Assembly (NCBI GenBank): GCA_002293685.1
Contig: DBDS01000004.1
Location: 34,479 to 98,478, forward strand
From: Patescibacteria group bacterium UBA926
GTDB lineage: Bacteria; Patescibacteriota; Doudnabacteria; UBA920
Direction: 5' to 3'
Length of the DNA stretch: 64,000 nucleotides
Made by a program: the position numbers and the translations under genes. How positions within the stretch are numbered: position 1 is the stretch's first letter; each line of letters opens with the position of its first letter. The notes under the pieces were generated by a model. The model saw only the letters and a list, made by a program, of their open reading frames with translations. It did no database searches and was not told where the DNA came from. This document shows positions 192 to 62,975 of the stretch, in pieces.

Positions 192-227
192 CTACCCCGA
201 TTTGTGCGGCCGCACAAATCGGGGTAG
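192..227. repeat. 36-bp perfect palindrome CTACCCCGATTTGTGCGG|CCGCACAAATCGGGGTAG with a GCGGCCGC core
   Basis: Read directly from the sequence. An identical copy lies at 21768-21803 (42-bp perfect palindrome 21765-21806). It sits between convergent genes. Confidence 0.9.
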
Positions 228-3940: not shown

Positions 3941-4008
3941 TGTCATCCCAATAGAATTAGGATTTGGTTTAATGAAAGATGGATCCCGGGTCGAGCCCGG
4001 GATGACAA
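3941..4008. repeat. GC-rich palindromic mini-element copy E2 with termini TGTCATCCC / GGGATGACA
   Basis: TGTCATCCC at 3941-3949 and GGGATGACAA at 4001-4008. An internal GGATCCCGGGTCGAGCCCGGGAT palindrome is present. Confidence 0.85.
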
Positions 4009-4024
4009 TTTGCTGCGCAAATTA

Positions 4025-7570: not shown

Positions 7571-7693
7571 TGTCATCCCCGCCGCTAGATATTTCCTATG
7601 TCATCCCCGCGAAGGCGGGGATCCATTAGGGCACTTATAGATTCCGGATTTCCCGCGTTCACCTTCGGTGAACTTGTAGAATCCGGAATGACG
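7571..7693. repeat. composite GC-rich palindromic element E3 (two TGTCATCCCC starts, ATCCCCGCGAAGGCGGGGAT palindrome, GTTCACC-TTC-GGTGAAC palindrome, end CCGGAATGAC)
   Basis: Read directly from the sequence. It lies between the hydrolase start and the csp terminator. Confidence 0.8.
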
Positions 7694-7699
7694 TAGCCA

Positions 7700-11162: not shown

Positions 11163-11720
11163 TTATAACGAGTATTTATAAAGGAGTGTTTCAATCACGT
11201 TTTGGTGTTTTAATCGGAGTTCCTCGTCGCGACCAATCTCGATGATTTCATCGTTGCGGTCTGTACCGCTTGCTGTCCAGTTGAAAGAACCAGTGAAATA
11301 AGATTTTTCGGTGACCAAAGTTTTCAAATGCATAATCGAACTATGATCGTTGAAGGCGATTGGGATTCCTGCTTGTTGTAAATCTTTTACAATTGATTCT
11401 TGGATATCTAAGGTGGTTGATTGTTTCTTATCCATGACCCTGCGCACTTCAACACCTCTATATTTAGCACCAATGAGAGCGTCTTTGATGTCTTGTCTGG
11501 TGAAAGTATAAATCGCGAAATACACAAACCGTTCGGCTTCGTTTATTTCGTTGATTAATAACTCGTTGCTAGCCACTTCTTTGTTGTAATACACTTCCAC
11601 TTGGCGTGCTGCACGTTCTTGCCACGCCGGTTCAACATGAAAAGAATAATAGAACTGCGCGCTCACGGCGATAAGCCCTGCTATTATAGTGACGTAGATT
11701 AAGTCTCTGTTGATTTTCAC
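11163..11720 (-). CDS. phospholipase D-family (HKD-motif) protein, Nuc-like
   Basis: HLKTLVTEKSYFTGSFNWT matches HxK(x)4D(x)6GSxN. An N-terminal TM helix is present. The GTG start lies inside the inverted-repeat module. Confidence 0.65.
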   Translation of the reverse strand: MKINRDLIYVTIIAGLIAVSAQFYYSFHVEPAWQERAARQVEVYYNKEVASNELLINEINEAERFVYFAIYTFTRQDIKDALIGAKYRGVEVRRVMDKKQSTTLDIQESIVKDLQQAGIPIAFNDHSSIMHLKTLVTEKSYFTGSFNWTASGTDRNDEIIEIGRDEELRLKHQNVIETLLYKYSL

Positions 11721-14582: not shown

Positions 14583-14740
14583 TGTCATCCCGGCAGCTAC
14601 AAGTGGTCCCCGCTTTCGCGGGGATAAACTCCGCGAGGACGAGGGCTAGCCGGGATCCATACCCTTTAAACTAATGGATTCCCACCTTCGAGCTCGCGAT
14701 GCTCGGGCTCTGCCCGAGCAAGCTCGTGTGGGAATGACAA
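14583..14740. repeat. composite GC-rich palindromic element E4 (TGTCATCCCGGCAGCTACAAG...CTAGCCGGGATCC followed by GGATTCCCAC...GTGGGAATGACAA)
   Basis: The first half is the reverse-complement homolog of elements at 26060-26150 and 57601-57679. It lies between argS and ileS and ends 9 bp before the ileS start. Confidence 0.85.
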
Positions 14741-14749
14741 CGGAAAATT

Positions 14750-17700
14750 ATGACAGAACAAACTAACAAACCACAATCAAATACTCCAAATTTTAACGAA
14801 CAAGAACTAGAAGTTTTAAAGTTTTGGGCCGAGCAAAATATTTTTGAGAAGAGCTTAGAGCAAACTAAAGATGCTAAACCTTTTGTTTTTTATGATGGAC
14901 CACCGTTTGCAACAGGAGTTCCTCACTACGGACACATTTTAATTTCGGCCGTTAAGGATGCATTCGGTCGTTATCAAACCATGAAGGGCAATTCTGTGCG
15001 TCGTGTTTGGGGATGGGATTGTCATGGGTTGCCTATTGAAAATATTGTTGAAGCCAAGCTTGGTATTTCTGGAAAGAAGCAAATTGAAGAAGTCGGTGTC
15101 GAAAAGTTCAACGCAGCTTGTCGTGAAAACGTCCTTACCTATGTAGACGAATGGGGTCGTACCATTGAGCGATTAGCACGCTGGGTTAACTTCAAGGACT
15201 CCTATAAAACTATGGACACCACCTACATGGAAAGTGTCTGGTGGGGTGTAAAGCAAGTGTGGGATAAAGATTTAATTTACCCTGACCATAAAGTTTTGCT
15301 TTACTGCAGTCGCTGTGAAACGCCATTGTCGAATTTTGAAGTGGCGATGGACAACAGTTATAAAGATGTCACAGAAGCTTCTGTTTTCGTCAAGTTCAAG
15401 TTAAATAGTGGTCAGCGAATTTTGGATTTCATGACCGACGATAAAACTTATGCTTTGGCGTGGACCACAACACCGTGGACATTACCTGGTAATACTGCGC
15501 TAAACATTGGCCCAGAAATCACTTACGTTATTGTTGAGCAAAACGGCGATAACTATATTTTAGCTAAGGACAGATTGGAAATTTTAGAAGGGCAATACGA
15601 AGTTAAGACAGAAATCAGTGCACGTTCTTTGGAGGGCTTAGCTTACGAACCATTGTATCCTGGCGTAATTTCCGATGAATCTGGTACTGCTCACAAGATA
15701 TATATAGAGGATTATGTCACAACTACTGATGGAACAGGGATAGTTCATAATGCTGCGATGTATGGGGAAGAAGATTTCGCGGCTGCCAAGGCACGCAATT
15801 TACCTCGTCAACATATGTTGGATGCGAAGGGTGAGTATCTACCATCTGCGCCTGAGAGCTTGCGCGGCGTGTTCTTTAAAGATGCTGATAAAATTGTTCT
15901 CGATGAATTGACTAGCAAAAATTTGGTTTATAAAACTCTTAACTACACTCACAGTTATCCTCACTGTTGGCGTTGTGGTACAGCGTTGTACTACTCAGCG
16001 TTACCAGCTTGGTTTATCAATATTCAAAAAGTGAAAGCGCGAATGCTCGAACTTAACGAAGGAATCAATTGGTATCCTGAACATCTTAAACACGGTCGCT
16101 TCGCGCAAGGAATTGAAAATGCGCCTGATTGGAACATTTCACGTAACCGTTATTGGGCAACGCCTTTGCCATTTTGGTTGTGTGAGAGCGAAGATTGCGA
16201 TAACAAAGTTTGTATAGGCTCAATTGATGAACTAAAAACCAGAGCTTCAAATTTCGATGAAGTTTATCCAAACTACGATCCGAACCCCTCCCTACCCTCC
16301 CCTCAGGAGGGGAGGGATAGGGAGGGGTCAATTGATTTGCATAAACCATTCATTGATAGAATCAAACTGCCTTGTGAAAAATGTAGCGGTGTAATGGCTC
16401 GCGTTCCTGAAGTAATTGATTGCTGGGTTGAATCTGCGAGCATGCCGTTTGCAGAACTCCATGCCCCGTTTGAAAACCAAGATTTGTTAGAACAGCGCTT
16501 ACCAGCAGATTTTGTATCTGAATATATTCCGCAGACCCGGGCTTGGTTCTACGTGTCGCATGTAATGAGCACGATCATTTTCGACAAAGCTCCGTTTAAA
16601 AATGTGATTACAACCGGAACAGTTTTAGCAGAAGACGGTACAAAGATGTCGAAATCAAAAAATAATTTCCCTGACCCAAATCTTGTTATTGATCAATACG
16701 GCGCAGATCCACTTCGTTTTTATCTTTTGACGAGTTCGATTGTAACCGGTGAAGACTTGAATTTCTCTGAAGCTGGCGTTTCTGAAGTAAACCGAAAGTT
16801 AAGTTTAATTCTTTGGAACACATTCCAGTTTTATAGAATGTATAGCCACGACACAATTGGCACCGAAGCGCCTCACGTAACTCACAGCCTAGATGTTTGG
16901 ATGCTGTCTAGATTGTTTGCAACACATGCTGAAGTTACAAAACAATTAGATGGTTTTAACACAGTGAAGGCAGGACGTGCTATTTCTGAATTAGTTACCG
17001 AACTTTCAACTTGGTTTGTTCGTCGCAGCCGCGATAGAATTAAATCCGGTGGGGAAGACGCTCGCACCGCGCTTCAAGTATTAGGTTTCAGTCTTGTTGA
17101 AATCAGCAAGATGCTTGCGCCATTTATGCCGTATCTCAGTGAAAAGATTTACAAAGAACTTACCGGTGAAGAATCAGTGCACTTAGCTTCTTGGAGTGAA
17201 GTTCGTGAGTATCGTCAAAGTAGTTTGGATGAAATGTCGGCTTTACGTTCAATAGTTGAAATCGGTCTAAGTCTTCGTAAAGAACACAACTTAAAAGTTC
17301 GCCAACCACTCGCAGAATTACAGTACCAAATTGCTAACGAAGAATTGAATCTAGACGAATCACTCGAGCAAATCATTGCCGAAGAAATGAATGTGAAGAA
17401 AGTGACAAACACCGAAGTAATCTCTCGCACCAACTGGGTCTCGAAAGCGGATAATGGTTTTATAGTTGCACTAAATACAGAGTTATCACAAGAATTAAAA
17501 GATGAAGGTTTGGCTCGTGATATCGAACGCGCCGTTCAAGATTTGCGAAAGAAGAGTGGTCTAAAAGTCGGACAAATTGTTGATTTGTATTTCACAACTA
17601 AGGACGACAACCTTGCCGAGATTCTTACATCATTAGTTGATCGAAAAAAGACTTTTATCAATCAAATTAAAACTAGCTTAGAGATTGAAGCTGATTACGA

Positions 17701-21764: not shown

Positions 21765-21806
21765 ACTCTACCCCGATTTGTGCGGCCGCACAAATCGGGG
21801 TAGAGT
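21765..21806. repeat. 42-bp perfect palindrome (second copy of the GCGGCCGC-core hairpin) between convergent genes
   Basis: ACTCTACCCCGATTTGTGCGG|CCGCACAAATCGGGGTAGAGT. Its 36-bp core is identical to 192-227. Confidence 0.9.
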
Positions 21807-25700: not shown

Positions 25701-26654
25701 ATGACAATAGATACTCTTAAAAGTTTATTAAAACACTATGGTCTAAATCCTAACAAGACATACGGTCAGCATTTTTTAATGGACGAAACAATTCTTGAAG
25801 ACATGGCTGATGTTGCTGATGTTAAAGCGGGGGATATGGTTGTAGAAATCGGACCAGGGATTGGTAACTTGACTGAAATTTTGTTAAAGCGAGAAGCAAC
25901 TGTTTTATCAATTGAAAAAGATGAACAGTTTATAAGAGTTCTTCGCACGCTTTCAAAGCAATACAAAAATTTTGAGTATGAGTTAATTGATGCATTGAAA
26001 TTTAATTTCTCCTCTTTCCTGTCATCCCCGGGCGAGCGTAGTGAGAACCGGGGATCCACTAGTGGGTCCCGGCTAGCCCGCGCGACTTCGTCCGCCAAAA
26101 TCTCTACGAGATTTAGGCGGACTTCGTCGCTTGTAGCTGCCGGGAAGACACCACAGTATAAAGTTGTCGCCAACATTCCTTACTACATCACTGGGAAAAT
26201 TGTTCAATTGTTTTTGAAGCAGGAGCATAAACCAAAAAGCATGACATTGCTTATGCAGAAAGAAGTTGCTAACAATATTGTTGCGAAAGTTGGACAACTA
26301 AACTTGTTAGCAATTTCTGTACAACTATATGGCGACGCAAAATTAGTTACAAAAGTTCCTGCTTTTAAATTTCATCCGGCTCCAAAAGTTGAGAGCGCAG
26401 TTATTCATATCGAATTATTTTCCAAACCAAAATATAAATTGAAAGACGAGCAAAAGTTTTTTCGAGTGTTGCGCGCTTGCTTTGCAGGGAAGCGAAAGCA
26501 AATCCATAACACACTGACAAATAATTTAGGACTAGAAAAAACTGTTGCATTGCAAAGTTTGGAAAATATAAATGTTGACCCAACGGCAAGACCACAGCAA
26601 CTAACAATCGAACAATGGATTAAGTTAGTAGACTCAATTGAATTGCCAAATTAA
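25701..26654 (+). CDS. rsmA: 16S rRNA (adenine1518/1519-N6)-dimethyltransferase RsmA/KsgA with ~44-codon in-frame GC-rich insert
   Basis: Contains GQHFLMDE, VVEIGPGIGNLT and YKVVANIPYYITG motifs. It is 317 aa versus ~270 for typical KsgA. The insert lies between FNF and YKVVANIPY. Confidence 0.9.
   Translation: MTIDTLKSLLKHYGLNPNKTYGQHFLMDETILEDMADVADVKAGDMVVEIGPGIGNLTEILLKREATVLSIEKDEQFIRVLRTLSKQYKNFEYELIDALKFNFSSFLSSPGERSENRGSTSGSRLARATSSAKISTRFRRTSSLVAAGKTPQYKVVANIPYYITGKIVQLFLKQEHKPKSMTLLMQKEVANNIVAKVGQLNLLAISVQLYGDAKLVTKVPAFKFHPAPKVESAVIHIELFSKPKYKLKDEQKFFRVLRACFAGKRKQIHNTLTNNLGLEKTVALQSLENINVDPTARPQQLTIEQWIKLVDSIELPN
26019..26150. repeat. GC-rich palindromic element E6 inserted in frame in rsmA
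   Basis: TGTCATCCCCGGGCGAGCGTAGTGAGAACCGGGGATCCACTAGTGGGTCCCGGCTAGCCCGCGCGACTTCGTCCGCCAAAATCTCTACGAGATTTAGGCGGACTTCGTCGCTTGTAGCTGCCGGGAAGACA. It is homologous to 53002-53039, 57601-57679 and 14583-14657. Confidence 0.9.
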
Positions 26655-26667
26655 AATTTATTCCTGT

Positions 26668-26782
26668 TGTCATCCTGAGCGTAGCGAATGATCTAGTTCC
26701 GAGATTCTTCGGCTTTGCCTCAGAATGACATTTGGCACTCCGCATTTGAGTTAAAAATGATCCCGGGTCTCAGCCCGGGATT
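26668..26782. repeat. GC-rich palindromic element E7 (12-bp termini TGTCATCCTGAG / CTCAGAATGACA) plus GATCCCGGGTCTCAGCCCGGGATTT hairpin
   Basis: The element sits in the convergent intergenic region and probably doubles as a bidirectional terminator. Its reverse complement is homologous to the gatB insert at 60733-60822. Confidence 0.85.
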
Positions 26783-38898: not shown

Positions 38899-39055
38899 GT
38901 CATTCTGAACAAAGCAACTTCATCATTCTGAGCTCTTCGAAGAATCTACCTCTGTCATTCTGAAGCCGTAGGCTGAAGAATCCAATAATTAGAGATCCTT
39001 CGCTTCGCCCGCCAAAATCCCTTTGAGATTTAGGCGGATTACGCTCAGGATGGCA
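38899..39055. repeat. GC-rich element E8: three tandem GTCATTCTGA(A/G) sub-units plus a CGCCAAAATCCCTTTGAGATTTAGGCGGA module
   Basis: Read directly from the sequence. The CGCCAAAATC...GAGATTTAGGCGGA module also occurs inside the rsmA insert at 26085-26125. Confidence 0.85.
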
Positions 39056-45678: not shown

Positions 45679-45915
45679 TTAAATTAGATGTCTGTTTCTA
45701 AACCCTTGTCCAGAACCAGACTTTAAGTATTTTTCAAAATTAAGAGCATCTTGCCTCTTAGAGAATGCACAGTACCATATTAATTTAACTGGTAGAAAAT
45801 TTTTAGTAGCATTCACTGACCCTTCGGTGTGTCGGTTCAATCTTTCTTTTACGTCTTTACTACTACCTGTATAGATTTTACCATTTATTAGTTTTAGTAG
45901 ATACACGTAATGCAT
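45679..45915 (-). CDS. GIY-YIG nuclease family protein (second copy), adjacent to tRNA-Ser
   Basis: MHYVYLLKLINGKIYTGSSKDVKERLNRH. The start is taken at the internal Met. The upstream extension of the called ORF overlaps a hairpin. Confidence 0.7.
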   Translation of the reverse strand: MHYVYLLKLINGKIYTGSSKDVKERLNRHTEGSVNATKNFLPVKLIWYCAFSKRQDALNFEKYLKSGSGQGFRNRHLI

Positions 45916-46023
45916 GTTTATTTTGCAACCCTTCGCTAAAGCTATGGGTTGCACACTTCGCTATTGTGATTTATTGGCTTGCCACACGAAGCCTTCTTGC
46001 CATCCGAAGGATGGGGCGAAGTG

Positions 46024-46111
<88 letters not shown>

Positions 46112-46550
46112 ACGTCGTACTTGTCTCCGAGCTTTCGGTACAGGCTAAAGCCTGTCCCTTACGCTCTCCATCAAGTACTCCTCTCACATTCACGCTTAAC
46201 CTCGCTATCGCTCGGCCCAAGTGTGAATGTGGTAAACTCACTTTCTTGGTCGCGGATACGGCAAGCCGTCCCGCTCCTTGTTCGCACTGGCGAAGCCAGA
46301 CGCTCACATGCTAAAGAATATTGTTGCCCTACGGGCATCTAAGATAAATCTAAATTGTGGATACTGTAAGTAGGACCTCCCTAACTACACTGTCTAAATG
46401 ACTCTACTATTATAACATTTTACCAAACTAAATCAAAAACGAGCCGTACTCTAGAATTGGCTCGTTTTTTGTTGGGTTTCGATTTCTGGTAGTACTATCA
46501 TTTCTGGATGGACGCCCACTTGGACTCAACTGGGCGTAGACCAAAAAGGA

Positions 46551-48505: not shown

Positions 48506-48598
<93 letters not shown>

Positions 48599-48810
48599 TC
48601 GTCGCAACAACCTCCATCCGTTCAAATTTGGCTAAAGCCAAATTTTCACTAGTTCCGGTGTTGCTCCTCTCACATTCACGCTTAACCTCACTACGCTCGG
48701 CCCAAGTGTGAATGTGTCAAATTATTAATACAGTCGCGGATGCTGCAAGCGGCCCCGCAGATATGTATCAATAACTCACTCATTTTACTGCAAAAGTGGT
48801 CATTGGTCAA

Positions 48811-49565: not shown

Positions 49566-49673
49566 TGTCATTCCTGGGCGCGAGCGGAGTGGGCGAACCG
49601 GGAATCTATTAAAGTGACAAGCTGATTTAGTGGATCCCCGGTTCTCACCCTACGGGTGAGCCCAGGGATGACA
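49566..49673. repeat. GC-rich palindromic element E10 with 13-bp termini TGTCATTCCTGGG / CCCAGGGATGACA
   Basis: 108-bp unit in AT-rich intergenic DNA, with internal palindromes CCGGTTCTCACCCTACGGGTGAGCCCAGG. Confidence 0.9.
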
Positions 49674-49723
49674 AAAAGTAAAACCCTCCTACGTCAACCT
49701 AGCGGTGGACTTCGCAGGGCAAG

Positions 49724-52631: not shown

Positions 52632-53144
52632 ATGTTTAAGAAAGCTCGACCACTGAAAGATCCTTCCGATTACGACCACGGCTATCAATATGCCTTATTC
52701 TTGCTCAATTTAAGCATGCGGACTGTTGGCGAAGTAAGAGACAAAATGACTAGTCGCGGATACACTTCTACTGTAATAAACGAAGTTATAAACAATCTGT
52801 TACAAGAAAAATACTTGAACGACTCAAATTATGCCGAAGTTTTTATAAATAGTATGAAAAACTATAAAACTTGGGGTCGGTTCATGATGAAAAAGAAGAT
52901 GTATGAGAAAAAATTACCGAAAGAATTAATTGACGAAAGCTTAAATGAATTTTTAAGTACCAAAGAAGAGAAGGAAATTGCTATGAGGTATCTATCTTCC
53001 ATGTCATCCTCGGTCGAGCGAAGCGAGAACCGGGGATCCATTGAATGGATTAAATCCCTGCCTTACGACGAAAAACAAAAACTAATGAGAAAGTTATTAT
53101 CACGCGGGTTTGGGATGGACATAGTAACAAAACTAATAAAATAA
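52632..53144 (+). CDS. recX: RecX-family regulatory protein with short in-frame GC-rich insert
   Basis: 170-aa ORF with a three-helical-repeat pattern (YALFLLNLSMRTVGEVRDKM...). Confidence 0.6.
   Translation: MFKKARPLKDPSDYDHGYQYALFLLNLSMRTVGEVRDKMTSRGYTSTVINEVINNLLQEKYLNDSNYAEVFINSMKNYKTWGRFMMKKKMYEKKLPKELIDESLNEFLSTKEEKEIAMRYLSSMSSSVERSENRGSIEWIKSLPYDEKQKLMRKLLSRGFGMDIVTKLIK
53002..53039. repeat. truncated copy of the rsmA-type GC-rich element inside recX (TGTCATCCTCGGTCGAGCGAAGCGAGAACCGGGGATCC)
   Basis: ~85% identical to 26021-26055. It is translated in the same frame (ERSENRGS). Confidence 0.85.
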
Positions 53145-57600: not shown

Positions 57601-57679
57601 ATCCTCGGGCAAAGACCCGGGGTCTGGATCCCGGCTAGCTCGCGCCCCGCTTCACGGGACTTGTAGCTGCCGGGATGAC
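57601..57679. repeat. GC-rich element E12 ending CCGGGATGAC, which overlaps the gatA ATG
   Basis: GGATCCCGGCTAGCTCGCGCCCCGCTTCACGGGACTTGTAGCTGCCGGGATGAC. It is homologous to 26060-26150 and to the reverse complement of 14583-14657. Confidence 0.85.
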
Positions 57680-59195
57680 TTATAGCATGAACTACGAAGA
57701 ATTATCTCTCGCTGAGTTGCGGGAAAAATTGGATAACAAAGAAGTTTCGTCAGTCGAACTGACGAACTATTTTTTGGCGCGAATCAAAGAGCAGAATCCG
57801 GAGCTCAATGCGTTCATTACAATTACTGAACAAGAAGCGTTAGAACAAGCAAAAGAAGCTGATGAATTTATAAACTCACCAGGCGACAACTTTCCACTAA
57901 CAGGAATTCCTTTTGCAGCGAAAGATTTATTTTTAACTAAGGGTATTCGTACAACAGCAGCTTCAAAAATTTTAGATAACTATATCCCGCCGTACGACGC
58001 AACTGTAATTGCAAAACTGAAAGAGCAGAAAGCAGTGTTGCTTGGTAAAGCGAACATGGATCAGTTTGCGCATGGCTCATCGGGTGAAACATCTGCTTAT
58101 GGCGCAACCAAAAATCCGTGGGACAAAACTCGTATGCCTGGCGGTTCTTCTTCGGGTAGTGCTGCTGCAGTGGCTGCGGGGCTTGCTCCTTGGGCTTTAG
58201 CTACAGAAACAGGCGGCAGTATTCGCCAACCTGCTTCGTTAACCGGCGTAAGTGGTTGGAAACCAACTTATGGCCGTGTTTCGCGATATGGAGTAGCGGC
58301 GATGGCTTCAAGTTTGGACAGCATGGGCGCTATGGCTACAAGCGTAAAAGATTTGGCAATGATTGCCGAAAGTATTTCTGGTCATGATCCAAAAGATGGC
58401 ACAACTGGAGAGCGTGAAGTTCCTGCTTACTCAAAATTACTGGACGCAAATATCAAAGGAATGAAAATCGGTGTGCCTAAAGAATATTTTGTTGATGGAA
58501 TGGAAGCAGGGGTGCGGGAAGCTGTCGAGAAGGCAATTGAAGAAATAAAAAACTTAGGTGCAGAAATTGTTGAGGTTAGTTTACCAAACACAAAGTACGG
58601 TTCGCTTGTTTACGCAATCGTATGTCCAAGCGAAGTATCTTCAAACCTAGCTCGTTACGATGGAATTCGTTACGGCCATTCCACATCTGAAGGCGGCAGT
58701 TTATTAGATGTGTACCAGAAAAGCCGCGCGGAGGGCTTTGGTGACGAAGCCAAACGCAGAATTATGACAGGTACTTACGTTCTTAGCGCGGGCTATTACG
58801 ATGCTTATTACAAAAAAGCGCAGCGCGTGCGTCGTAAGATTTTAAATGAATTCGAAGAAGTTTTTAAGCGGGTAGATATTTTACTTGCACCATCAAGTCC
58901 GAATGTTGCTCAGCCTTTGGGGAACGCCGCGAGTGATCCATTGTTTGGATATATCGCCGATCAATTAAACATCCCAGCTTCATTGGCAGGTTTGCCTGCA
59001 TTGTCGTTGCCGTGTGGTTTTGCTTCCCCTCCTTTCCAAGGAGGGGTGGCCGAGTCCGCGACAGCGGGCGAGGACGGGGTGCTACTTCCAGTTGGACTTC
59101 AAATCATCGGTCCGCAATGGGGCGAACAAAAAGTTTTTAATGTTGGATACGCTTATCAGCAAGCAACTGATTGGCATACTAAGAAAGCAAAATAA
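57675..59195 (+). CDS. gatA: Glu-tRNA(Gln) amidotransferase subunit A with ~18-codon in-frame hairpin insert
   Basis: Amidase signature GGSSSGSAAAVAAGL, with catalytic Ser/Lys context. The true start may be Met at 57687. Confidence 0.95.
   Translation: MTYSMNYEELSLAELREKLDNKEVSSVELTNYFLARIKEQNPELNAFITITEQEALEQAKEADEFINSPGDNFPLTGIPFAAKDLFLTKGIRTTAASKILDNYIPPYDATVIAKLKEQKAVLLGKANMDQFAHGSSGETSAYGATKNPWDKTRMPGGSSSGSAAAVAAGLAPWALATETGGSIRQPASLTGVSGWKPTYGRVSRYGVAAMASSLDSMGAMATSVKDLAMIAESISGHDPKDGTTGEREVPAYSKLLDANIKGMKIGVPKEYFVDGMEAGVREAVEKAIEEIKNLGAEIVEVSLPNTKYGSLVYAIVCPSEVSSNLARYDGIRYGHSTSEGGSLLDVYQKSRAEGFGDEAKRRIMTGTYVLSAGYYDAYYKKAQRVRRKILNEFEEVFKRVDILLAPSSPNVAQPLGNAASDPLFGYIADQLNIPASLAGLPALSLPCGFASPPFQGGVAESATAGEDGVLLPVGLQIIGPQWGEQKVFNVGYAYQQATDWHTKKAK
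59037..59090. repeat. in-frame CCCCTCCTTTCCAAGGAGGGG hairpin element in gatA
   Basis: Perfect 8-bp stem. The insert encodes ASPPFQGGVAESATAGEDG between the conserved CGF and LPVGLQIIG. It is homologous to 62155-62215 in miaA. Confidence 0.85.
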
Positions 59196-59669: not shown

Positions 59670-61252
59670 ACTTAAACGGATACAAACCAGTTATCGGACT
59701 CGAAATCCACGTACAGCTTGCAACCAAAAGCAAGATGTTTTCTAGCGCGCCTAATAATCCTGACGAAAAACAGCCAAATACTAATATAGACGAAGTCGTT
59801 ACGGCGGAACCGGGAACTTTGCCGGTGCTTAATAAAGAAGCGGTTCGTCTTGGGGTGATGGTGGGTTTGGCTTTAAATTGCGAAATTCCTGAATACTCAA
59901 AATTTGATCGGAAACATTATTTCTATCCAGATTTACCGAAAGGTTATCAGATTTCTCAGTACGATGAACCAATTGCCTTAAACGGTTGGGTAGAAATTTT
60001 GGTACCAACAAATGGGGAACGCGATGCTTACACTAAACGCATCCGCATCACCCGCGCACACTTGGAAGAAGATGCTGGTAAAAACATGCACCCAGAAGGT
60101 TTGCCATATTCGCTCGTTGATTACAATCGAGCCGGTAGTCCGCTTTTAGAAATTGTCACCGAACCAGATATAGAAACTGCCGAAGAGGCGCGCATCTTCT
60201 TGCAGGAATTACAAAGAATTGTTCGCTATGTCGGAGCGAGCTCTGCTGATATGGAAAAAGGCACAATGCGTTGTGAGCCAAACATTTCAGTTCGCAAACC
60301 CGGAGAAGAAAGCTTGCCAAAATACAAGGTTGAAGTGAAAAACATCAACAGTTTTAAATTTGCGGAAGCAGCAATCAATTACGAAATTCCTCGTCACATC
60401 GAAATGCTTGAAGCAGGTGGCATGCCAAAGCAAGTCACGATGGGTTGGAATGAGAAAACTAACAAGACTGTTGAACAACGCAGTAAGGAAGAAGCAAATG
60501 ATTATCGCTATTTCCCCGAACCAGATTTAGCGCCAATGCGTTTTACAAAAGAATTTCTTGATGAACTGCGGGGAGATTTACCTGAATTGCCATCACAAAA
60601 GCGCGTGCGTTTCAAACAAGAGTTTGCTCTTGATGAATCTGTAATCGAAACTTTACTAAATTGGAAAGACCTCAATGAATATTTTGAGGATGTTGTTAGT
60701 GAGATTGACGCTTGGATAATTACTGACTCCAGTGTCATTCTGAGTGATAGCGAAGAATCTCAATCATCAGATCCTTCGGCTTCGCCTCAGGATGACGGGA
60801 AAGAGATCTCTCAGGATGACGGAAAAAGAGCGAGATTAATCAAAGCGGCGGCGAATTGGTGCATTCAAGAATTTTCAGCTTTACTAAATGCCGACTTGGC
60901 AAACCCAAGTGACTCAAAAGTTTCAGCAGAAAATATGGCTGAACTTGTAAAGCTAATTGACGCTGGAAAAATTTCTGGTTCAGCAGCGAAGCAAGTATTT
61001 AAAAAGATGTATGAAACTGGCGGTGAGCCAGACCATATAGTAGAAGAACTTGGCTTGTCACAGGTTAGTGATGAAGGAGCAATTGAAACTGCAGTAGACG
61101 AAATCATCGCTGCAAATCCGAAAGCCGTAGAGGATTACAAAGCTGGTCAACAAAAATCGTTCGGCTTCTTGGTAGGGCAAGTGATGGCGGCCATGAAAGG
61201 AAAAGCTAATCCACAAGTGGTTAACGAAATTTTAAAAGAGAAATTATCATAA
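59666..61252 (+). CDS. gatB: Asp/Glu-tRNA amidotransferase subunit B with ~30-codon in-frame insert before the C-terminal YqeY-like domain
   Basis: Conserved N-terminus MNLNGYKPVIGLEIHVQL and the GatB/GatE catalytic core. Confidence 0.95.
   Translation: MNLNGYKPVIGLEIHVQLATKSKMFSSAPNNPDEKQPNTNIDEVVTAEPGTLPVLNKEAVRLGVMVGLALNCEIPEYSKFDRKHYFYPDLPKGYQISQYDEPIALNGWVEILVPTNGERDAYTKRIRITRAHLEEDAGKNMHPEGLPYSLVDYNRAGSPLLEIVTEPDIETAEEARIFLQELQRIVRYVGASSADMEKGTMRCEPNISVRKPGEESLPKYKVEVKNINSFKFAEAAINYEIPRHIEMLEAGGMPKQVTMGWNEKTNKTVEQRSKEEANDYRYFPEPDLAPMRFTKEFLDELRGDLPELPSQKRVRFKQEFALDESVIETLLNWKDLNEYFEDVVSEIDAWIITDSSVILSDSEESQSSDPSASPQDDGKEISQDDGKRARLIKAAANWCIQEFSALLNADLANPSDSKVSAENMAELVKLIDAGKISGSAAKQVFKKMYETGGEPDHIVEELGLSQVSDEGAIETAVDEIIAANPKAVEDYKAGQQKSFGFLVGQVMAAMKGKANPQVVNEILKEKLS
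60733..60822. repeat. GC-rich element E14 inside gatB (TGTCATTCTGAG...CCTCAGGATGACGG...CTCAGGATGACGG)
   Basis: Homologous to the reverse complement of the intergenic element at 26668-26730. It encodes SVILSDSEESQSSDPSASPQDDGKEISQDDG. Confidence 0.85.
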
Positions 61253-61814: not shown

Positions 61815-62975
61815 TCACCTTAGGAGCTTTTTGGCAAGGGTGATTAACTCGTCTGGTGAATCGGACCAATGAATATCTTTATTCCGTTTCCACCAAGTTA
61901 GTTGACGTTTGGCGTATTGTCTAATGGATATCACTGACAGTTCCTGCATTTGTTTGGCAGTAATTTTATTCTGCAAAAACTGAGCTGTATATTTATATTC
62001 TAATCCGAAGCTTTCAAATCTTTTCCAAGATACACCATTTTTGTGAAGCGAACTTACTTCATCGATCATACCGCGCTTTAACCAAGACTTCATTCGTTTA
62101 CTGATTTTACCTTCTAATACTTCCATGGATGGGTTTATTCCTAACCAAAGTGTCGACCACCCCGTCTTCGCCTTCGGCGAATCCACCCCTCCTTGAAAAG
62201 GAGGGGAGAGCAAAGGCACAGGTTTGCCAGTTGATTTAACAATTTCAATTGCTCGTATCAGACGGTGAGGATTTTTTTCATCAATAGTTTTTGCACGTTC
62301 CGGGTCTAGCTTCATAAGCATCTTAAACATCTCAGTAGTGCTGAGTTTAGATAATTTTGCTCGGAGTTTCAAATCAGGTTTGACTTTTGGAAATTGTTGA
62401 TTGAATGCAACTGAATCAATCCAGTGCATAGTGCCGCCGCAGAGGATTGGTAGCTTACCGCGTTTTAAAATATCCGAAATTATTTTATGTGCCTTTCGCT
62501 GAAATTTCTCTGCGGAATATTGTAGCTTTGGATTAGCTTCATCAATTAAGTAGTGGGGAATTGATTTGTAAATAAAGACTTTTTTGGAAATAGATCCTTC
62601 GACTCGCTTCGCTCGCTCAGGATGACGTGGAGTAGATCCTTCGACTCGCTTCGCTCGCTCAGGATGACGTGGAGTAGATCCTTCGACTCGCTTCGCTCGT
62701 CCGTGAATACTAGATGGGATAGCAGTATCCCCGGCGAATGCCGGGGTCTGTAATGTAGATCCCGGATAGCCCTGCGGGCTTCCGGGATGACTGGAAAATG
62801 GAACTGTCATCCATTTTCCAGTCACTTTCCCGCTTCCAATATCTAGCCCACGATAAATTTGTCGGCTGTCTGCCGAAATAATTTCACCATTAAATTTCTT
62901 GGCTAATTTAACAGCCAATTCACTTTTTCCACTAGCTGTTGGACCGACAACAATTACGAGCTTTGGTTTGTTCAT
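61815..62975 (-). CDS. miaA: tRNA dimethylallyltransferase MiaA carrying two in-frame GC-rich inserts (~85 extra codons)
   Basis: P-loop VIVVGPTASGKSELAVKLA and ISADSRQIYRGLDIGSGK, then a long insert before the conserved SIPHYLID. It is 386 aa versus ~300 aa for typical MiaA. Confidence 0.9.
   Translation of the reverse strand: MNKPKLVIVVGPTASGKSELAVKLAKKFNGEIISADSRQIYRGLDIGSGKVTGKWMTVPFSSHPGSPQGYPGSTLQTPAFAGDTAIPSSIHGRAKRVEGSTPRHPERAKRVEGSTPRHPERAKRVEGSISKKVFIYKSIPHYLIDEANPKLQYSAEKFQRKAHKIISDILKRGKLPILCGGTMHWIDSVAFNQQFPKVKPDLKLRAKLSKLSTTEMFKMLMKLDPERAKTIDEKNPHRLIRAIEIVKSTGKPVPLLSPPFQGGVDSPKAKTGWSTLWLGINPSMEVLEGKISKRMKSWLKRGMIDEVSSLHKNGVSWKRFESFGLEYKYTAQFLQNKITAKQMQELSVISIRQYAKRQLTWWKRNKDIHWSDSPDELITLAKKLLR
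62155..62215. repeat. in-frame CCCCTCCTTGAAAAGGAGGGG hairpin element in miaA (homolog of the gatA insert)
   Basis: Its reverse complement CCCCTCCTTTTCAAGGAGGGGTGG...GACGGGGTGG aligns with 59037-59090. It encodes LSPPFQGGVDSPKAKTG. Confidence 0.85.
62591..62823. repeat. complex GC-rich insert in miaA: 42-bp tandem repeat x2.4, a homolog of intergenic E9, and a GACTGGAAAATGG...CCATTTTCCAGTC hairpin
   Basis: TAGATCCTTCGACTCGCTTCGCTCGCTCAGGATGACGTGGAG is repeated head to tail (62591-62700). The next segment, 62717-62790, is ~80% identical to 41284-41344. Confidence 0.9.

What the first reader, a model, noticed from the sequence alone, without database searches (positions are those of the whole stretch)
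26019..26150. The same element is translated in the same frame in two unrelated genes (rsmA and recX), giving a shared ERSENRGS peptide
Seen in sequence:
- The rsmA insert begins TGTCATCCCCGGGCGAGCGTAGTGAGAACCGGGGATCC.
- recX at 53002-53039 carries TGTCATCCTCGGTCGAGCGAAGCGAGAACCGGGGATCC.
- Both are read as ...S(P/V)(G/V)ERSENRGS...

Inference: either only one frame of this element is stop-free and compatible with protein insertion, or insertion is phase-specific. In Rickettsia, RPE inserts are likewise phase-constrained.
Basis: partly seen in the sequence, partly recalled or inferred. Interest (0 to 1): 0.6.

Follow-up and report, generated by a model that had tools for sequence, protein, structure and literature searches.

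The report
Palindromic repeats inserted in housekeeping genes
Two unrelated genes of a tiny uncultured bacterium share an eight-residue peptide because the same short DNA hairpin repeat (a CGTC-type REP, the class that includes Rickettsia RPE-4 and RPE-6) sits in a surface loop of each; the shared reading frame reflects a limited set of stop-free frames plus chance, and no frame-sensing insertion mechanism is needed.

Summary
A 39-nt hairpin unit (TGTC | ATCCCCGG | 16-nt loop | CCGGGGAT | CCA) lies in rsmA (26020-26058) and in recX (53002-53040). The two copies are 35/39 identical and both are read as ...ERSENRGS.... Each is an insertion in a variable loop: the closest relative's orthologs lack it, and identical inserts occur in 18 or more independent assemblies. 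The unit fits the published CGTC-tagged REP superfamily (Di Nocera 2013), which includes Rickettsia RPE-4 and RPE-6 and has known intragenic in-frame copies. The genome (Ca. Doudnabacteria-like, CPR) is full of such units: 9 in 41 kb, against 0 in the syntenic 41 kb of its relative. They also sit inside MiaA, GatB, GatA, IleRS and an M50 peptidase. The claim that only one frame is stop-free fails for the shared unit, where 4-5 of 6 frames are open (3-4 with the tail). It holds only for the whole 131-nt rsmA dimer. Phase-specific insertion is not supported: sister units in this genome are read in all three tag phases and antisense, and published R. conorii copies use 5 of 6 frames. Verdict: a new member of a known kind. 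Its moderate interest comes from the CPR host, the high intragenic load and a REP-free sister genome.

The parts
25701..26654 (+). rsmA/ksgA host gene, 317 aa (homologs are about 275 aa)
   Evidence: Pfam RrnaAD E=1.7e-53; homolog lengths and alignment.
26020..26058 (+). CGTC-type REP unit A in rsmA: tag TGTC (26020-23), stem ATCCCCGG (26024-31), 16-nt loop (26032-47), stem CCGGGGAT (26048-55), tail CCA (26056-58). Read as SSPGERSENRGS.
   Evidence: Sequence; DNA fold shows the hairpin; the anatomy matches the CGTC REP description in PMC3733652.
26059..26062 (.). 4-nt spacer CTAG between the two inverted REP units
   Evidence: Sequence.
26063..26150 (-). Inverted REP unit B on the minus strand (TGTC TTCCCGGCAGCTACAAG ... 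GCTAGCCGGGAC CCA). Relatives at 14583-14659(+) and 57628-57683(-). Read antisense as GSRLARA...VAAGKT.
   Evidence: (I10, I25); the composite folds at -38 kcal/mol, z=-5.7.
26086..26126 (.). Nested hairpin in the loop of unit B (CTTCGTCCGCCAAAATCTCTACGAGATTTAGGCGGACTTCG); second copy at 39003-39043
   Evidence: the repeat finder family D10, 85% identity; fold.
52632..53144 (+). recX host gene, 170 aa (homologs are 160-161 aa)
   Evidence: Pfam RecX_HTH1/2/3.
53002..53040 (+). CGTC-type REP unit A in recX, a singlet 35/39 identical to the rsmA unit. Read as SSSVERSENRGS.
   Evidence: (D9).
49566..49675 (.). Intergenic inverted dimer of the same long-loop family: 49566-49609(+) and 49634-49675(-)
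7599..7696 (.). Intergenic dimer that includes a canonical short-loop CGTC unit (TGTC ATCCCCGC GAAG GCGGGGAT CCA) and an inverted partner
14583..14738 (.). Intergenic heterodimer, with a unit B-type partner, upstream of ileS
26668..26729 (.). Intergenic dimer just downstream of the rsmA stop codon
60733..60820 (.). REP dimer plus a partial unit inside gatB, read as VILSDSEESQSSDPSASPQDDGKEISQDDG (sense VI phase, then antisense). Absent from the relative's GatB.
62591..62798 (-). REP cluster inside miaA: three tandem 42-nt units (TPRHPERAKRVEGS x3) plus a dimer (SSHPGSPQGYPGS...TPAFAGDT). Absent from the relative's MiaA.
   Evidence: (D2, D8).

Best explanation
The shared peptide comes from a short, non-autonomous palindromic repeat of the CGTC-tagged REP class. 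Its anatomy is an unpaired tag C/TGTC, an 8-bp stem beginning A-T/T-A, a loop, the return stem and an unpaired CCA tail; here the loop is 16 nt. This class has recently multiplied in one Candidatus Doudnabacteria-like (CPR) genome. Copies lie in intergenic DNA as singlets and inverted dimers. Because this compact genome has little spacer DNA, copies also lie inside essential genes. Steps shown: (i) the inserts are lineage-specific additions in variable, disordered surface loops; (ii) they keep the ORF open; (iii) the same DNA is read in different phases and orientations in different genes. Steps inferred: the units move as single-strand hairpins through a trans-acting enzyme that is not yet known for CGTC REPs. 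Insertion is blind to reading phase. Purifying selection then removes copies that introduce a stop or frameshift or hit structured parts of the protein. A single unit is 27 or 39 nt long, a multiple of three, so it cannot shift the frame by itself. Only 3-4 of the 6 phases of this unit plus its tail are stop-free. Two survivors sharing a phase, and hence the ERSENRGS peptide, is therefore unremarkable.
For: Insertion and recency: RsmA homologs are about 275 aa against 317, and the gap lies just before YKVVANIPYY. The closest ortholog, 92% identical outside the gap, lacks the insert. Against B. subtilis KsgA 6ifs, query residues 108-151 replace an 8-residue loop. AlphaFold2 gives pLDDT above 90 for most of the core and 40-61 with no secondary structure for the insert. 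RecX is 170 aa against 160-161, again in a loop. The relative's MiaA, GatB and GatA also lack their inserts. The same detector finds 0 units in 41.3 kb of the relative and 9 in the syntenic 41.3 kb of the window. Repeat family: there are about 17 tagged hairpins in 83 kb, many as inverted dimers. More than 116 metagenome loci carry the same hairpin, nearly all outside genes in high-GC contigs. Tag, stem, tail and dimer organisation match the description of CGTC REPs (PMC3733652), which equates R. conorii CGTC-1 and CGTC-4 with RPE-6 and RPE-4 and lists intragenic copies. Frames: stop analysis; all tag phases and antisense used in this genome; 5 of 6 frames used in R. conorii, my hand count. 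Not an artefact.
Against: No mobilising enzyme was found. The 83 kb examined contain no transposase or RAYT, and the literature knows none for CGTC REPs. No target-site duplication or clean empty-site junction could be defined, because the host loops have diverged. All sampled strains are clonal, so there is no presence/absence polymorphism to demonstrate current mobility. All three verified intragenic copies of this exact subfamily share one phase. All six sense-oriented intragenic units in this genome read the 3' arm as GGA|TCN. This hints at a frame preference that stop codons alone do not fully explain. The 16-nt loop is outside the canonical 4-5 nt range for CGTC REPs.
Confidence: 0.8

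Rival explanations
1. Frame-constrained element: either only one phase of the element is translatable, or the insertion machinery places it in a fixed phase relative to codons.
For: The three verified intragenic copies of this subfamily (RsmA, RecX, MnmG in L116) share a phase. The SS...ENxGS phase is the one most often stop-free: 8/10 copies with tails and 0.89 against 0.66 and 0.44 over 89 copies.
Against: The shared unit is open in 4-5 of 6 frames. Other CGTC units in the same genome are read in all three tag phases and antisense. R. conorii intragenic CGTC REPs use five frames. No known DNA transposition mechanism senses codon phase (established knowledge). The single open frame of the dimer is expected after the fact, since the unused frames are free to accumulate stops.
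Confidence: 0.1
2. The ERSENRGS-containing peptide is a selected functional module, such as a shared interaction or localisation motif recruited by both proteins.
For: An identical 8-residue peptide occurs in two nucleic-acid-related proteins. The inserts are stably maintained and identical across many samples.
Against: The closest relative's orthologs lack it. It is predicted to be disordered and outside the fold. The same DNA occurs intergenically in both orientations. Other lineages carry different REP-derived peptides at the same loops. The identity across samples reflects clonality, not conservation.
Confidence: 0.04
3. The inserts are not part of the mature product: an assembly artefact, or an intervening sequence removed at the RNA or protein level.
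For: The segments are GC-rich and strongly folding inside AT-rich genes. One JGI scaffold (L128) has an N-gap in the repeat.
Against: Identical in-frame sequence occurs in 18-23 independent contigs, including an 851-kb contig. There is no Rfam intron or ribozyme match. The insert is 39-131 nt, with no intein motifs and no intein-sized ORF. The ORFs are uninterrupted.
Confidence: 0.02

Closest known systems
CGTC-tagged REPs (Di Nocera, De Gregorio & Rocco 2013, BMC Genomics 14:522; PMC3733652), families CGTC-1 to CGTC-4
   Same: Unpaired 5' tag CGTC, often TGTC. An 8-9 bp GC-rich stem that starts with A-T/T-A pairs. An unpaired CCA tail. Singlets plus inverted dimers, including heterodimers. 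Mostly intergenic, with some in-frame intragenic copies in DNA repair, tRNA and rRNA enzymes. No associated transposase.
   Different: The flagged unit has a 16-nt loop instead of 4-5 nt, although canonical short-loop units co-occur in the window (for example 7599-7625). The host is a 40%-GC CPR bacterium, which is not among the species named in the parts of that paper I read; the paper states 5 phyla, mostly Alphaproteobacteria. The intragenic fraction is unusually high.
Rickettsia palindromic elements RPE-4 and RPE-6 (equated with CGTC-4 and CGTC-1 in R. conorii) and RPE-1 (Ogata et al. 2000 Science 290:347, as cited in PMC10969869 and PMC3733652)
   Same: Palindromic repeats inserted in-frame in unrelated housekeeping genes of a small, AT-rich, host-dependent bacterium. 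The insertions are lineage-specific proliferations, sit at surface loops, and give the same peptide in different proteins. A KsgA/dimethyladenosine transferase is also a listed host (RC1022).
   Different: RPE-1 is a 100-150-bp element with a conserved encoded peptide. The unit here is 39 nt and open in most frames; only the 131-nt rsmA dimer resembles RPE-1 in having a single open sense frame. The phylum and the unit sequences differ.
Bradyrhizobium long-loop CGTC-1 REPs
   Same: The recX copy translated in the VI phase, VIPGRAKREPGIH, matches exactly the REP-dimer-derived 'hypothetical proteins' of several Bradyrhizobium strains. The consensus of the high-GC metagenome copies is GTCATCCCGGGGCTCGCGAAGCGAGAACCCGGGATCCA.
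   Different: In high-GC hosts the units are almost entirely extragenic. Here they are embedded in essential genes of a 40%-GC genome.
REPIN/RAYT systems (GTAG-tagged REPs; Bertels & Rainey 2011, PMC3116915)
   Same: Two inverted REP hairpins separated by a short spacer behave as one non-autonomous unit. The presumed mobilisation substrate is a single-strand hairpin.
   Different: The tag is CGTC/TGTC, not GTAG. No RAYT gene was found in the 83 kb examined. REPINs are typically extragenic.
Bacterial MITEs that form in-frame fusions (intragenic ERIC, Coxiella QMITE1, Anabaena MITEs; review PMC10969869)
   Same: Small non-autonomous repeats that can extend host ORFs.
   Different: MITEs have 15-30-bp terminal inverted repeats and target-site duplications derived from a parent IS. 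Neither was identifiable here.

Membership tests
CGTC-tagged REP superfamily | Unpaired 5' tetranucleotide tag CGTC (variants TGTC and CCTC allowed) | tested here: met
   TGTC at 26020-26023 and 53002-53005. Tags across about 17 units in 83 kb are TGTC, CGTC or AGTC. High-GC metagenome copies mostly carry CGTC.
CGTC-tagged REP superfamily | Stem of 8-9 bp whose first two pairs are A-T and T-A | tested here: met
   ATCCCCGG/CCGGGGAT (8 bp) in rsmA. ATCCTCGG/CCGGGGAT (7 Watson-Crick pairs plus one T·G) in recX.
CGTC-tagged REP superfamily | Loop of 4-5 nt | tested here: not met
   The flagged unit has a 16-nt loop. The paper notes longer loops in Bradyrhizobium CGTC-1 and some CGTC-3 units. Canonical 4-5-nt loops occur in sister units at 7599-7625 and 3983-4010. 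I therefore place it at superfamily level as a long-loop variant and not in a numbered family.
CGTC-tagged REP superfamily | Short unpaired 3' tail, consensus CCA | tested here: met
   CCA follows the stem in both flagged units and in most in-window units. The downstream consensus over 89 copies begins CAt.
CGTC-tagged REP superfamily | Multi-copy and dispersed, frequently as inverted dimers (homo- or heterodimers), and predominantly intergenic | tested here: met
   Dimers at 7599-7696, 14583-14738, 26020-26150, 26668-26729, 49566-49675 and 60733-60799. Copies in high-GC contigs are almost all extragenic. In this genome roughly half are intragenic, which is atypical.
REPIN/RAYT system | GTAG tag and a cognate single-copy RAYT (IS200/IS605-type Y1 transposase) flanked by the REPs | tested here: not met
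   The tag is not GTAG. No Y1_Tnp or any other transposase appears among the annotated or Pfam-scanned ORFs of the 83 kb. The rest of the roughly 850-kb genome could not be scanned.
Rickettsia RPE-1-type coding palindrome | An element of about 100-150 bp with one conserved reading frame, giving a conserved peptide of about 30-50 aa in many proteins | tested here: inconclusive
   The flagged rsmA span (132 nt) has one open sense frame and encodes 44 aa. However, it is a heterodimer of modules that occur separately elsewhere, and no second copy of the whole composite was found in the window.
MITE | Terminal inverted repeats of 15-30 bp related to a parent IS, plus target-site duplications | tested here: inconclusive
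   The dimer ends are inverted (TGTCATCCC.../...GGGAAGACA), but they are only the REP tag plus stem. No parent IS is present. A TSD cannot be called because the host loops have diverged from the relative.

The most novel reading that the evidence does not exclude
CGTC-type REPs are, or very recently were, actively transposing in this roughly 0.85-Mb CPR genome, while a sister genome about 90% identical at protein level appears REP-free in the 41 kb compared. The enzyme that mobilises CGTC REPs is unknown since their description. It would then be one of the few genes that differ between the two genomes; untested leads are the small GIY-YIG and PLD-like nucleases seen in the window. In addition, the uniform G-S reading of the 3' arm in all six sense intragenic units may reflect real selection on the encoded linker peptide.
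Probability: 0.15. Interest if true: 0.7.

Novelty: new member of a known kind. Interest (0 to 1): 0.35.

Why it matters
In-frame 'selfish' palindromes in essential genes are best known from Rickettsia. The same REP superfamily does this in a CPR/Patescibacteria genome, with a unit whose VI-phase translation exactly matches Bradyrhizobium REP-derived ORFs. This extends the phenomenon to another reduced, host-dependent lineage and suggests either cross-phylum spread or a shared trans-acting factor. There are two practical consequences. REP-derived loops inflate and fragment gene calls and break assemblies in CPR MAGs. Also, the pair of a REP-rich and a REP-free sister genome gives a small, tractable search space for the unknown CGTC-REP mobilising activity.

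Tried and rejected
(1) The genome-contig scan with GAGCGNAGNGAGAACCNGGGAT gave 7 hits in unrelated phyla, which is about the chance level. (2) ORF-spanning tests on the metagenome hits first suggested intragenic copies in L020, L050 and L051. On inspection those ORFs are low-complexity or high-GC junk with no Pfam hit, and in L120 the unit lies just upstream of a start codon. Only L116 (MnmG) was kept. (3) L128 seemed to show a split rsmA, but it is a scaffold with an N-gap inside the repeat. (4) The strain comparison for presence/absence polymorphism failed because all contigs are 99.9-100% identical. The only difference is a likely assembly collapse in the MiaA tandem repeat in L134. (5) A concatenated six-frame peptide query against the protein database, intended to count frames in real proteins, returned only 17 small REP-derived 'hypothetical proteters'—that is, small hypothetical proteins—mostly from Bradyrhizobium. 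It was useful for affinity but not for frame statistics. (6) Rfam gave no family, only a sub-threshold miRNA chance hit. (7) Target-site duplication could not be determined. (8) Intein, intron, riboswitch and CRISPR-repeat readings were considered and dropped on grounds of size, anatomy and the absence of matches.

Full report
OBSERVATION. The two quoted strings are present as described. The rsmA ORF (25701-26654, +; Pfam RrnaAD, E=1.7e-53) reads ...FNFSSFLSSPGERSENRGSTSGSRLARATSSAKISTRFRRTSSLVAAGKTPQYKVV.... The recX ORF (52632-53144, +; RecX_HTH1/2/3) reads ...RYLSSMSSSVERSENRGSIEWIKSL.... The shared DNA is a 39-nt unit at 26020-26058 and 53002-53040, 35/39 identical, in the same orientation and the same codon phase. 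Shuffled controls never reproduce it.

THE SEGMENTS ARE INSERTIONS. RsmA homologs cluster at about 275 aa against 317 aa here. The extra segment lies in a variable loop immediately before the conserved YKVVANIPYY motif. The closest full-length ortholog (P0001, 92% identical outside the gap) has the 7-residue loop GARDLGE where the window has 49 residues, a net gain of 126 nt. Against B. subtilis KsgA (6ifs), query residues 108-151 replace chain residues 113-120. An AlphaFold2 model built on a 50-sequence alignment has mean pLDDT 86. Most of the methyltransferase core is above 90, while the inserted block scores 40-61 and has no secondary structure. RecX homologs are 160-161 aa against 170 aa here. 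The relative's loop TRLHSDLSE is replaced by SSMSSSVERSENRGSIEW, a net gain of 27 nt. The inserts are not assembly artefacts: the identical RsmA is encoded on 18 contigs, including an 851,616-bp contig (GCA_022842405.1), and the identical RecX on 23 contigs. The window itself belongs to DBDX01000007.1 / Ga0119928_1000004 (155.7 kb). The nearest named relatives are annotated Candidatus Doudnabacteria.

ANATOMY. The unit is TGTC | ATCCCCGG | GCGAGCGTAGTGAGAA | CCGGGGAT | CCA, that is tag, 8-bp stem, 16-nt loop, stem and tail. In rsmA it is followed by a 4-nt spacer (CTAG) and a second, different unit in inverted orientation at 26063-26150. On the minus strand that unit reads TGTC TTCCCGGCAGCTACAAG ... 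GCTAGCCGGGAC CCA, and its long loop contains a nested hairpin (26086-26126) that recurs at 39003-39043. The flagged 26019-26150 span is therefore an inverted heterodimer whose outer ends are TGTCATCC... and ...GGAAGACA. It folds at -38 kcal/mol, z=-5.7. recX carries a singlet.

A GENOME-WIDE REPEAT CLASS. The 64-kb window plus 19 kb of flanks from the same contig contains about 17 tagged hairpins. Many are inverted dimers in intergenic DNA: 3638, 3983, 7599/7641, 14583/14678, 26668/26729, 41281/41316, 49566/49634 and 57598/57628. Others lie inside genes: GatB 60733-60820, MiaA 62591-62798 (including three tandem 42-nt units) and an M50-family peptidase about 2.5 kb beyond the window. The closest relative shares synteny and about 87-92% protein identity. 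In its 41.3 kb the same detector finds 0 units, against 9 in the syntenic 41.3 kb of the window. Its MiaA (301 against 386 aa), GatB (499 against 528), GatA (485 against 502), RecX and RsmA all lack the inserts cleanly. The elements therefore expanded recently in this lineage.

WHAT IT IS. Most come from 60-75%-GC contigs and share the consensus (C)GTCATCCCGGGGCTCGCGAAGCGAGAACCCGGGATCCA. By GC3 periodicity nearly all of these lie outside genes. The anatomy corresponds to the CGTC-tagged REP superfamily of Di Nocera et al. [quoted passage not shown] That paper equates R. conorii CGTC-1 and CGTC-4 with RPE-6 and RPE-4. The one feature not met is loop length, 16 nt against 4-5 nt. The paper notes longer loops in Bradyrhizobium CGTC-1, and the VI-phase translation of the recX copy, VIPGRAKREPGIH, matches exactly REP-dimer-derived 'hypothetical proteins' of Bradyrhizobium. 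Canonical short-loop units also occur in the window, for example TGTC ATCCCCGC GAAG GCGGGGAT CCA at 7599. Rfam has no matching family. No transposase or RAYT is encoded in the 83 kb examined; only a small GIY-YIG and a PLD-like nuclease are present.

THE FRAME QUESTION. (i) Stop codons. The 38-nt unit is open in 4/6 frames (rsmA copy) and 5/6 (recX copy). The always-closed frame is the antisense one that reads GGA|TGA from the tag. Adding the tail (CCAYTAG/A in this genome) closes the VI sense phase (GG|ATC|CAY|TAG) and often one antisense phase, leaving 3-4 frames. Over 89 distinct copies with 12-nt flanks, the stop-free fractions are 0.89 (the phase used), 0.66 and 0.44 for the sense frames, and 0.78, 0.45 and 0.51 for the antisense frames. 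The whole flagged rsmA span is open in only one sense frame. That is expected after the fact, since unused frames are free to accumulate stops. (ii) Usage in this genome. Sense-oriented units are read with the tag as SS (RsmA, RecX), VI (GatB) and HP (MiaA tandem units, MiaA 62759-62791, M50 peptidase). Units are read antisense in RsmA (unit B), GatB and MiaA. (iii) Usage elsewhere. At the same RsmA loop, other CPR lineages carry other REP peptides in SS or VI phase (P0004, P0005, P0042). A distant RecX (P0179) has LMSSSGLRSKTRGSS at the same loop. (iv) Published catalogue. I classified by hand the 28 intragenic R. conorii CGTC entries in Additional file 3 of PMC3733652. This gives about 10 VI-type (VIPAKAGI), 5 SF-type (SFPRKRES), 4 CH-type (CHSRESGNP), 6 antisense -ND (DSRFRGND), 3 antisense -GMT, and none in the TGA-containing frame. 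So insertion is not phase-specific, and the shared unit has several translatable frames. Single units are 27 nt (canonical) or 39 nt (this variant), both multiples of three, so a unit cannot shift the host frame whatever the insertion phase; this point is an inference from the anatomy. Two survivors sharing one of 3-4 permissive frames is a roughly 1-in-3 to 1-in-4 event.

RESIDUAL SIGNAL. Only three verified intragenic copies of this exact subfamily were found: RsmA, RecX, and a metagenomic MnmG/GidA (L116; Pfam GIDA E=1.9e-141...VSSRGAPSGENPGS...). All three are in the same phase. All six sense-oriented intragenic units in this genome read the 3' arm as GGA|TCN (G-S). A second hairpin family gives SPPFQGGV in both GatA and MiaA. 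With n this small the pattern may be chance, or it may reflect selection for Gly/Ser/Pro/charged linker peptides. It cannot be settled without the whole genome.

MECHANISM. Shown: lineage-specific hairpin repeats occupy disordered loops of essential proteins without breaking the ORFs, and the same DNA is translated in whatever phase it landed. Inferred: trans-mobilisation as single-strand hairpins, by analogy with REP/RAYT and IS200/IS605 (the agent for CGTC REPs is unknown), followed by purifying selection against copies that carry stops or disrupt structured regions.

VERDICT. The two proposed causes, a single open frame or phase-specific insertion, are not supported for the shared unit. This is a new member of a known kind, CGTC-type REPs in a CPR bacterium. 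Its moderate interest comes from the host range, the high intragenic load, the near-identity to Bradyrhizobium units and the availability of a REP-free sister genome.

Noticed in passing
window 59025-59049 (gatA, +) and 62183-62207 (miaA, gene on -); related unit at 16272-16331 (ileS): A second, unrelated hairpin family (CCCCTCCTT..AAGGAGGGG) is also translated in the same frame in two unrelated genes, giving SPPFQGGV in both GatA and MiaA. IleRS carries a related unit (..PSPQEGR..). The MiaA copy is absent from the relative's ortholog.
   Followed up: partly
window 62591-62716 (miaA): Three tandem 42-nt CGTC units encode TPRHPERAKRVEGS three times. One assembly (L134) is about 57 nt shorter here, which is either copy-number variation or an assembly collapse.
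   Followed up: partly
window 192-227 and 21768-21803; a diverged copy about 400 nt left of the window: A perfect 36-nt palindrome CTACCCCGATTTGTGCGGCCGCACAAATCGGGGTAG occurs twice and ends in CTAC/GTAG. It may be a spacer-less GTAG-type REP dimer or a bidirectional terminator, so both REP superfamilies may coexist in this genome.
   Followed up: no
upstream of tags at 7599, 14678(-), 26020, 26668, 53002, 60737(-), 62759(-): About 7 of 16 units are preceded by a T-rich ...TTTCC stretch. This could be a target-site preference or an unrecognised 5' extension of the element.
   Followed up: no
all sense-oriented intragenic units: 26020, 53002, 60733, 62591-62716, 62759-62791, and about 66535 in contig-extended coordinates: The 3' arm plus tail is read as GGA|TCN (Gly-Ser) in all six units, although the 5' tag is read in three different phases. 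The CCAYTAG tail closes only one of the two alternatives.
   Followed up: partly
RsmA loop (P0004, P0005, P0042, P0120) and RecX loop (P0179, P0195) in other CPR genomes: The same two protein loops carry different REP-derived peptides in other lineages, for example SSPRRRGSIPRFPIKSGMT, VIPDATSAKREGDPGS and LMSSSGLRSKTRGSS. These loops are recurrent landing or tolerance sites.
   Followed up: partly
P0203, P0205, P0206, P0208 (Bradyrhizobium 'hypothetical proteins'): These 70-100-aa database proteins are translated REP dimers (VIPGRAKREPGIH...WIPGSR..ARPGMT). They are likely spurious gene calls, and they exactly match one frame of the recX copy despite the difference in phylum and GC content.
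   Followed up: partly
window 45679-45954 (-), next to tRNA-Ser 46024-46111; window 11163-11720 (-): A small stand-alone GIY-YIG nuclease (Pfam E=1.8e-16) and a PLD-like nuclease are the only nuclease-like ORFs seen. No GIY-YIG is called in the 41 kb examined from the REP-free relative, where synteny breaks at a serine recombinase and an R-M methylase.
   Followed up: no
window 46024-46236 and 48506-48721: Two tRNA-Ser genes (anticodons TGA and GCT) are followed by about 120 nt of near-identical downstream sequence (repeat families D4, D5, D16, D20), suggesting a local duplication.
   Followed up: no
window about 35.9-38.9 kb: There is a cluster of type IV secretion or conjugation-like genes (PrgI, TraC-like, TraG P-loop ATPase) that is conserved in the relative.
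   Followed up: no
contig ends of L132, L133, L135, L136: Independent assemblies of this clonal genome tend to break at or near REP clusters (about window 53.3 kb, 56.8 kb and 62.6 kb). These repeats therefore fragment CPR MAG assemblies.
   Followed up: no
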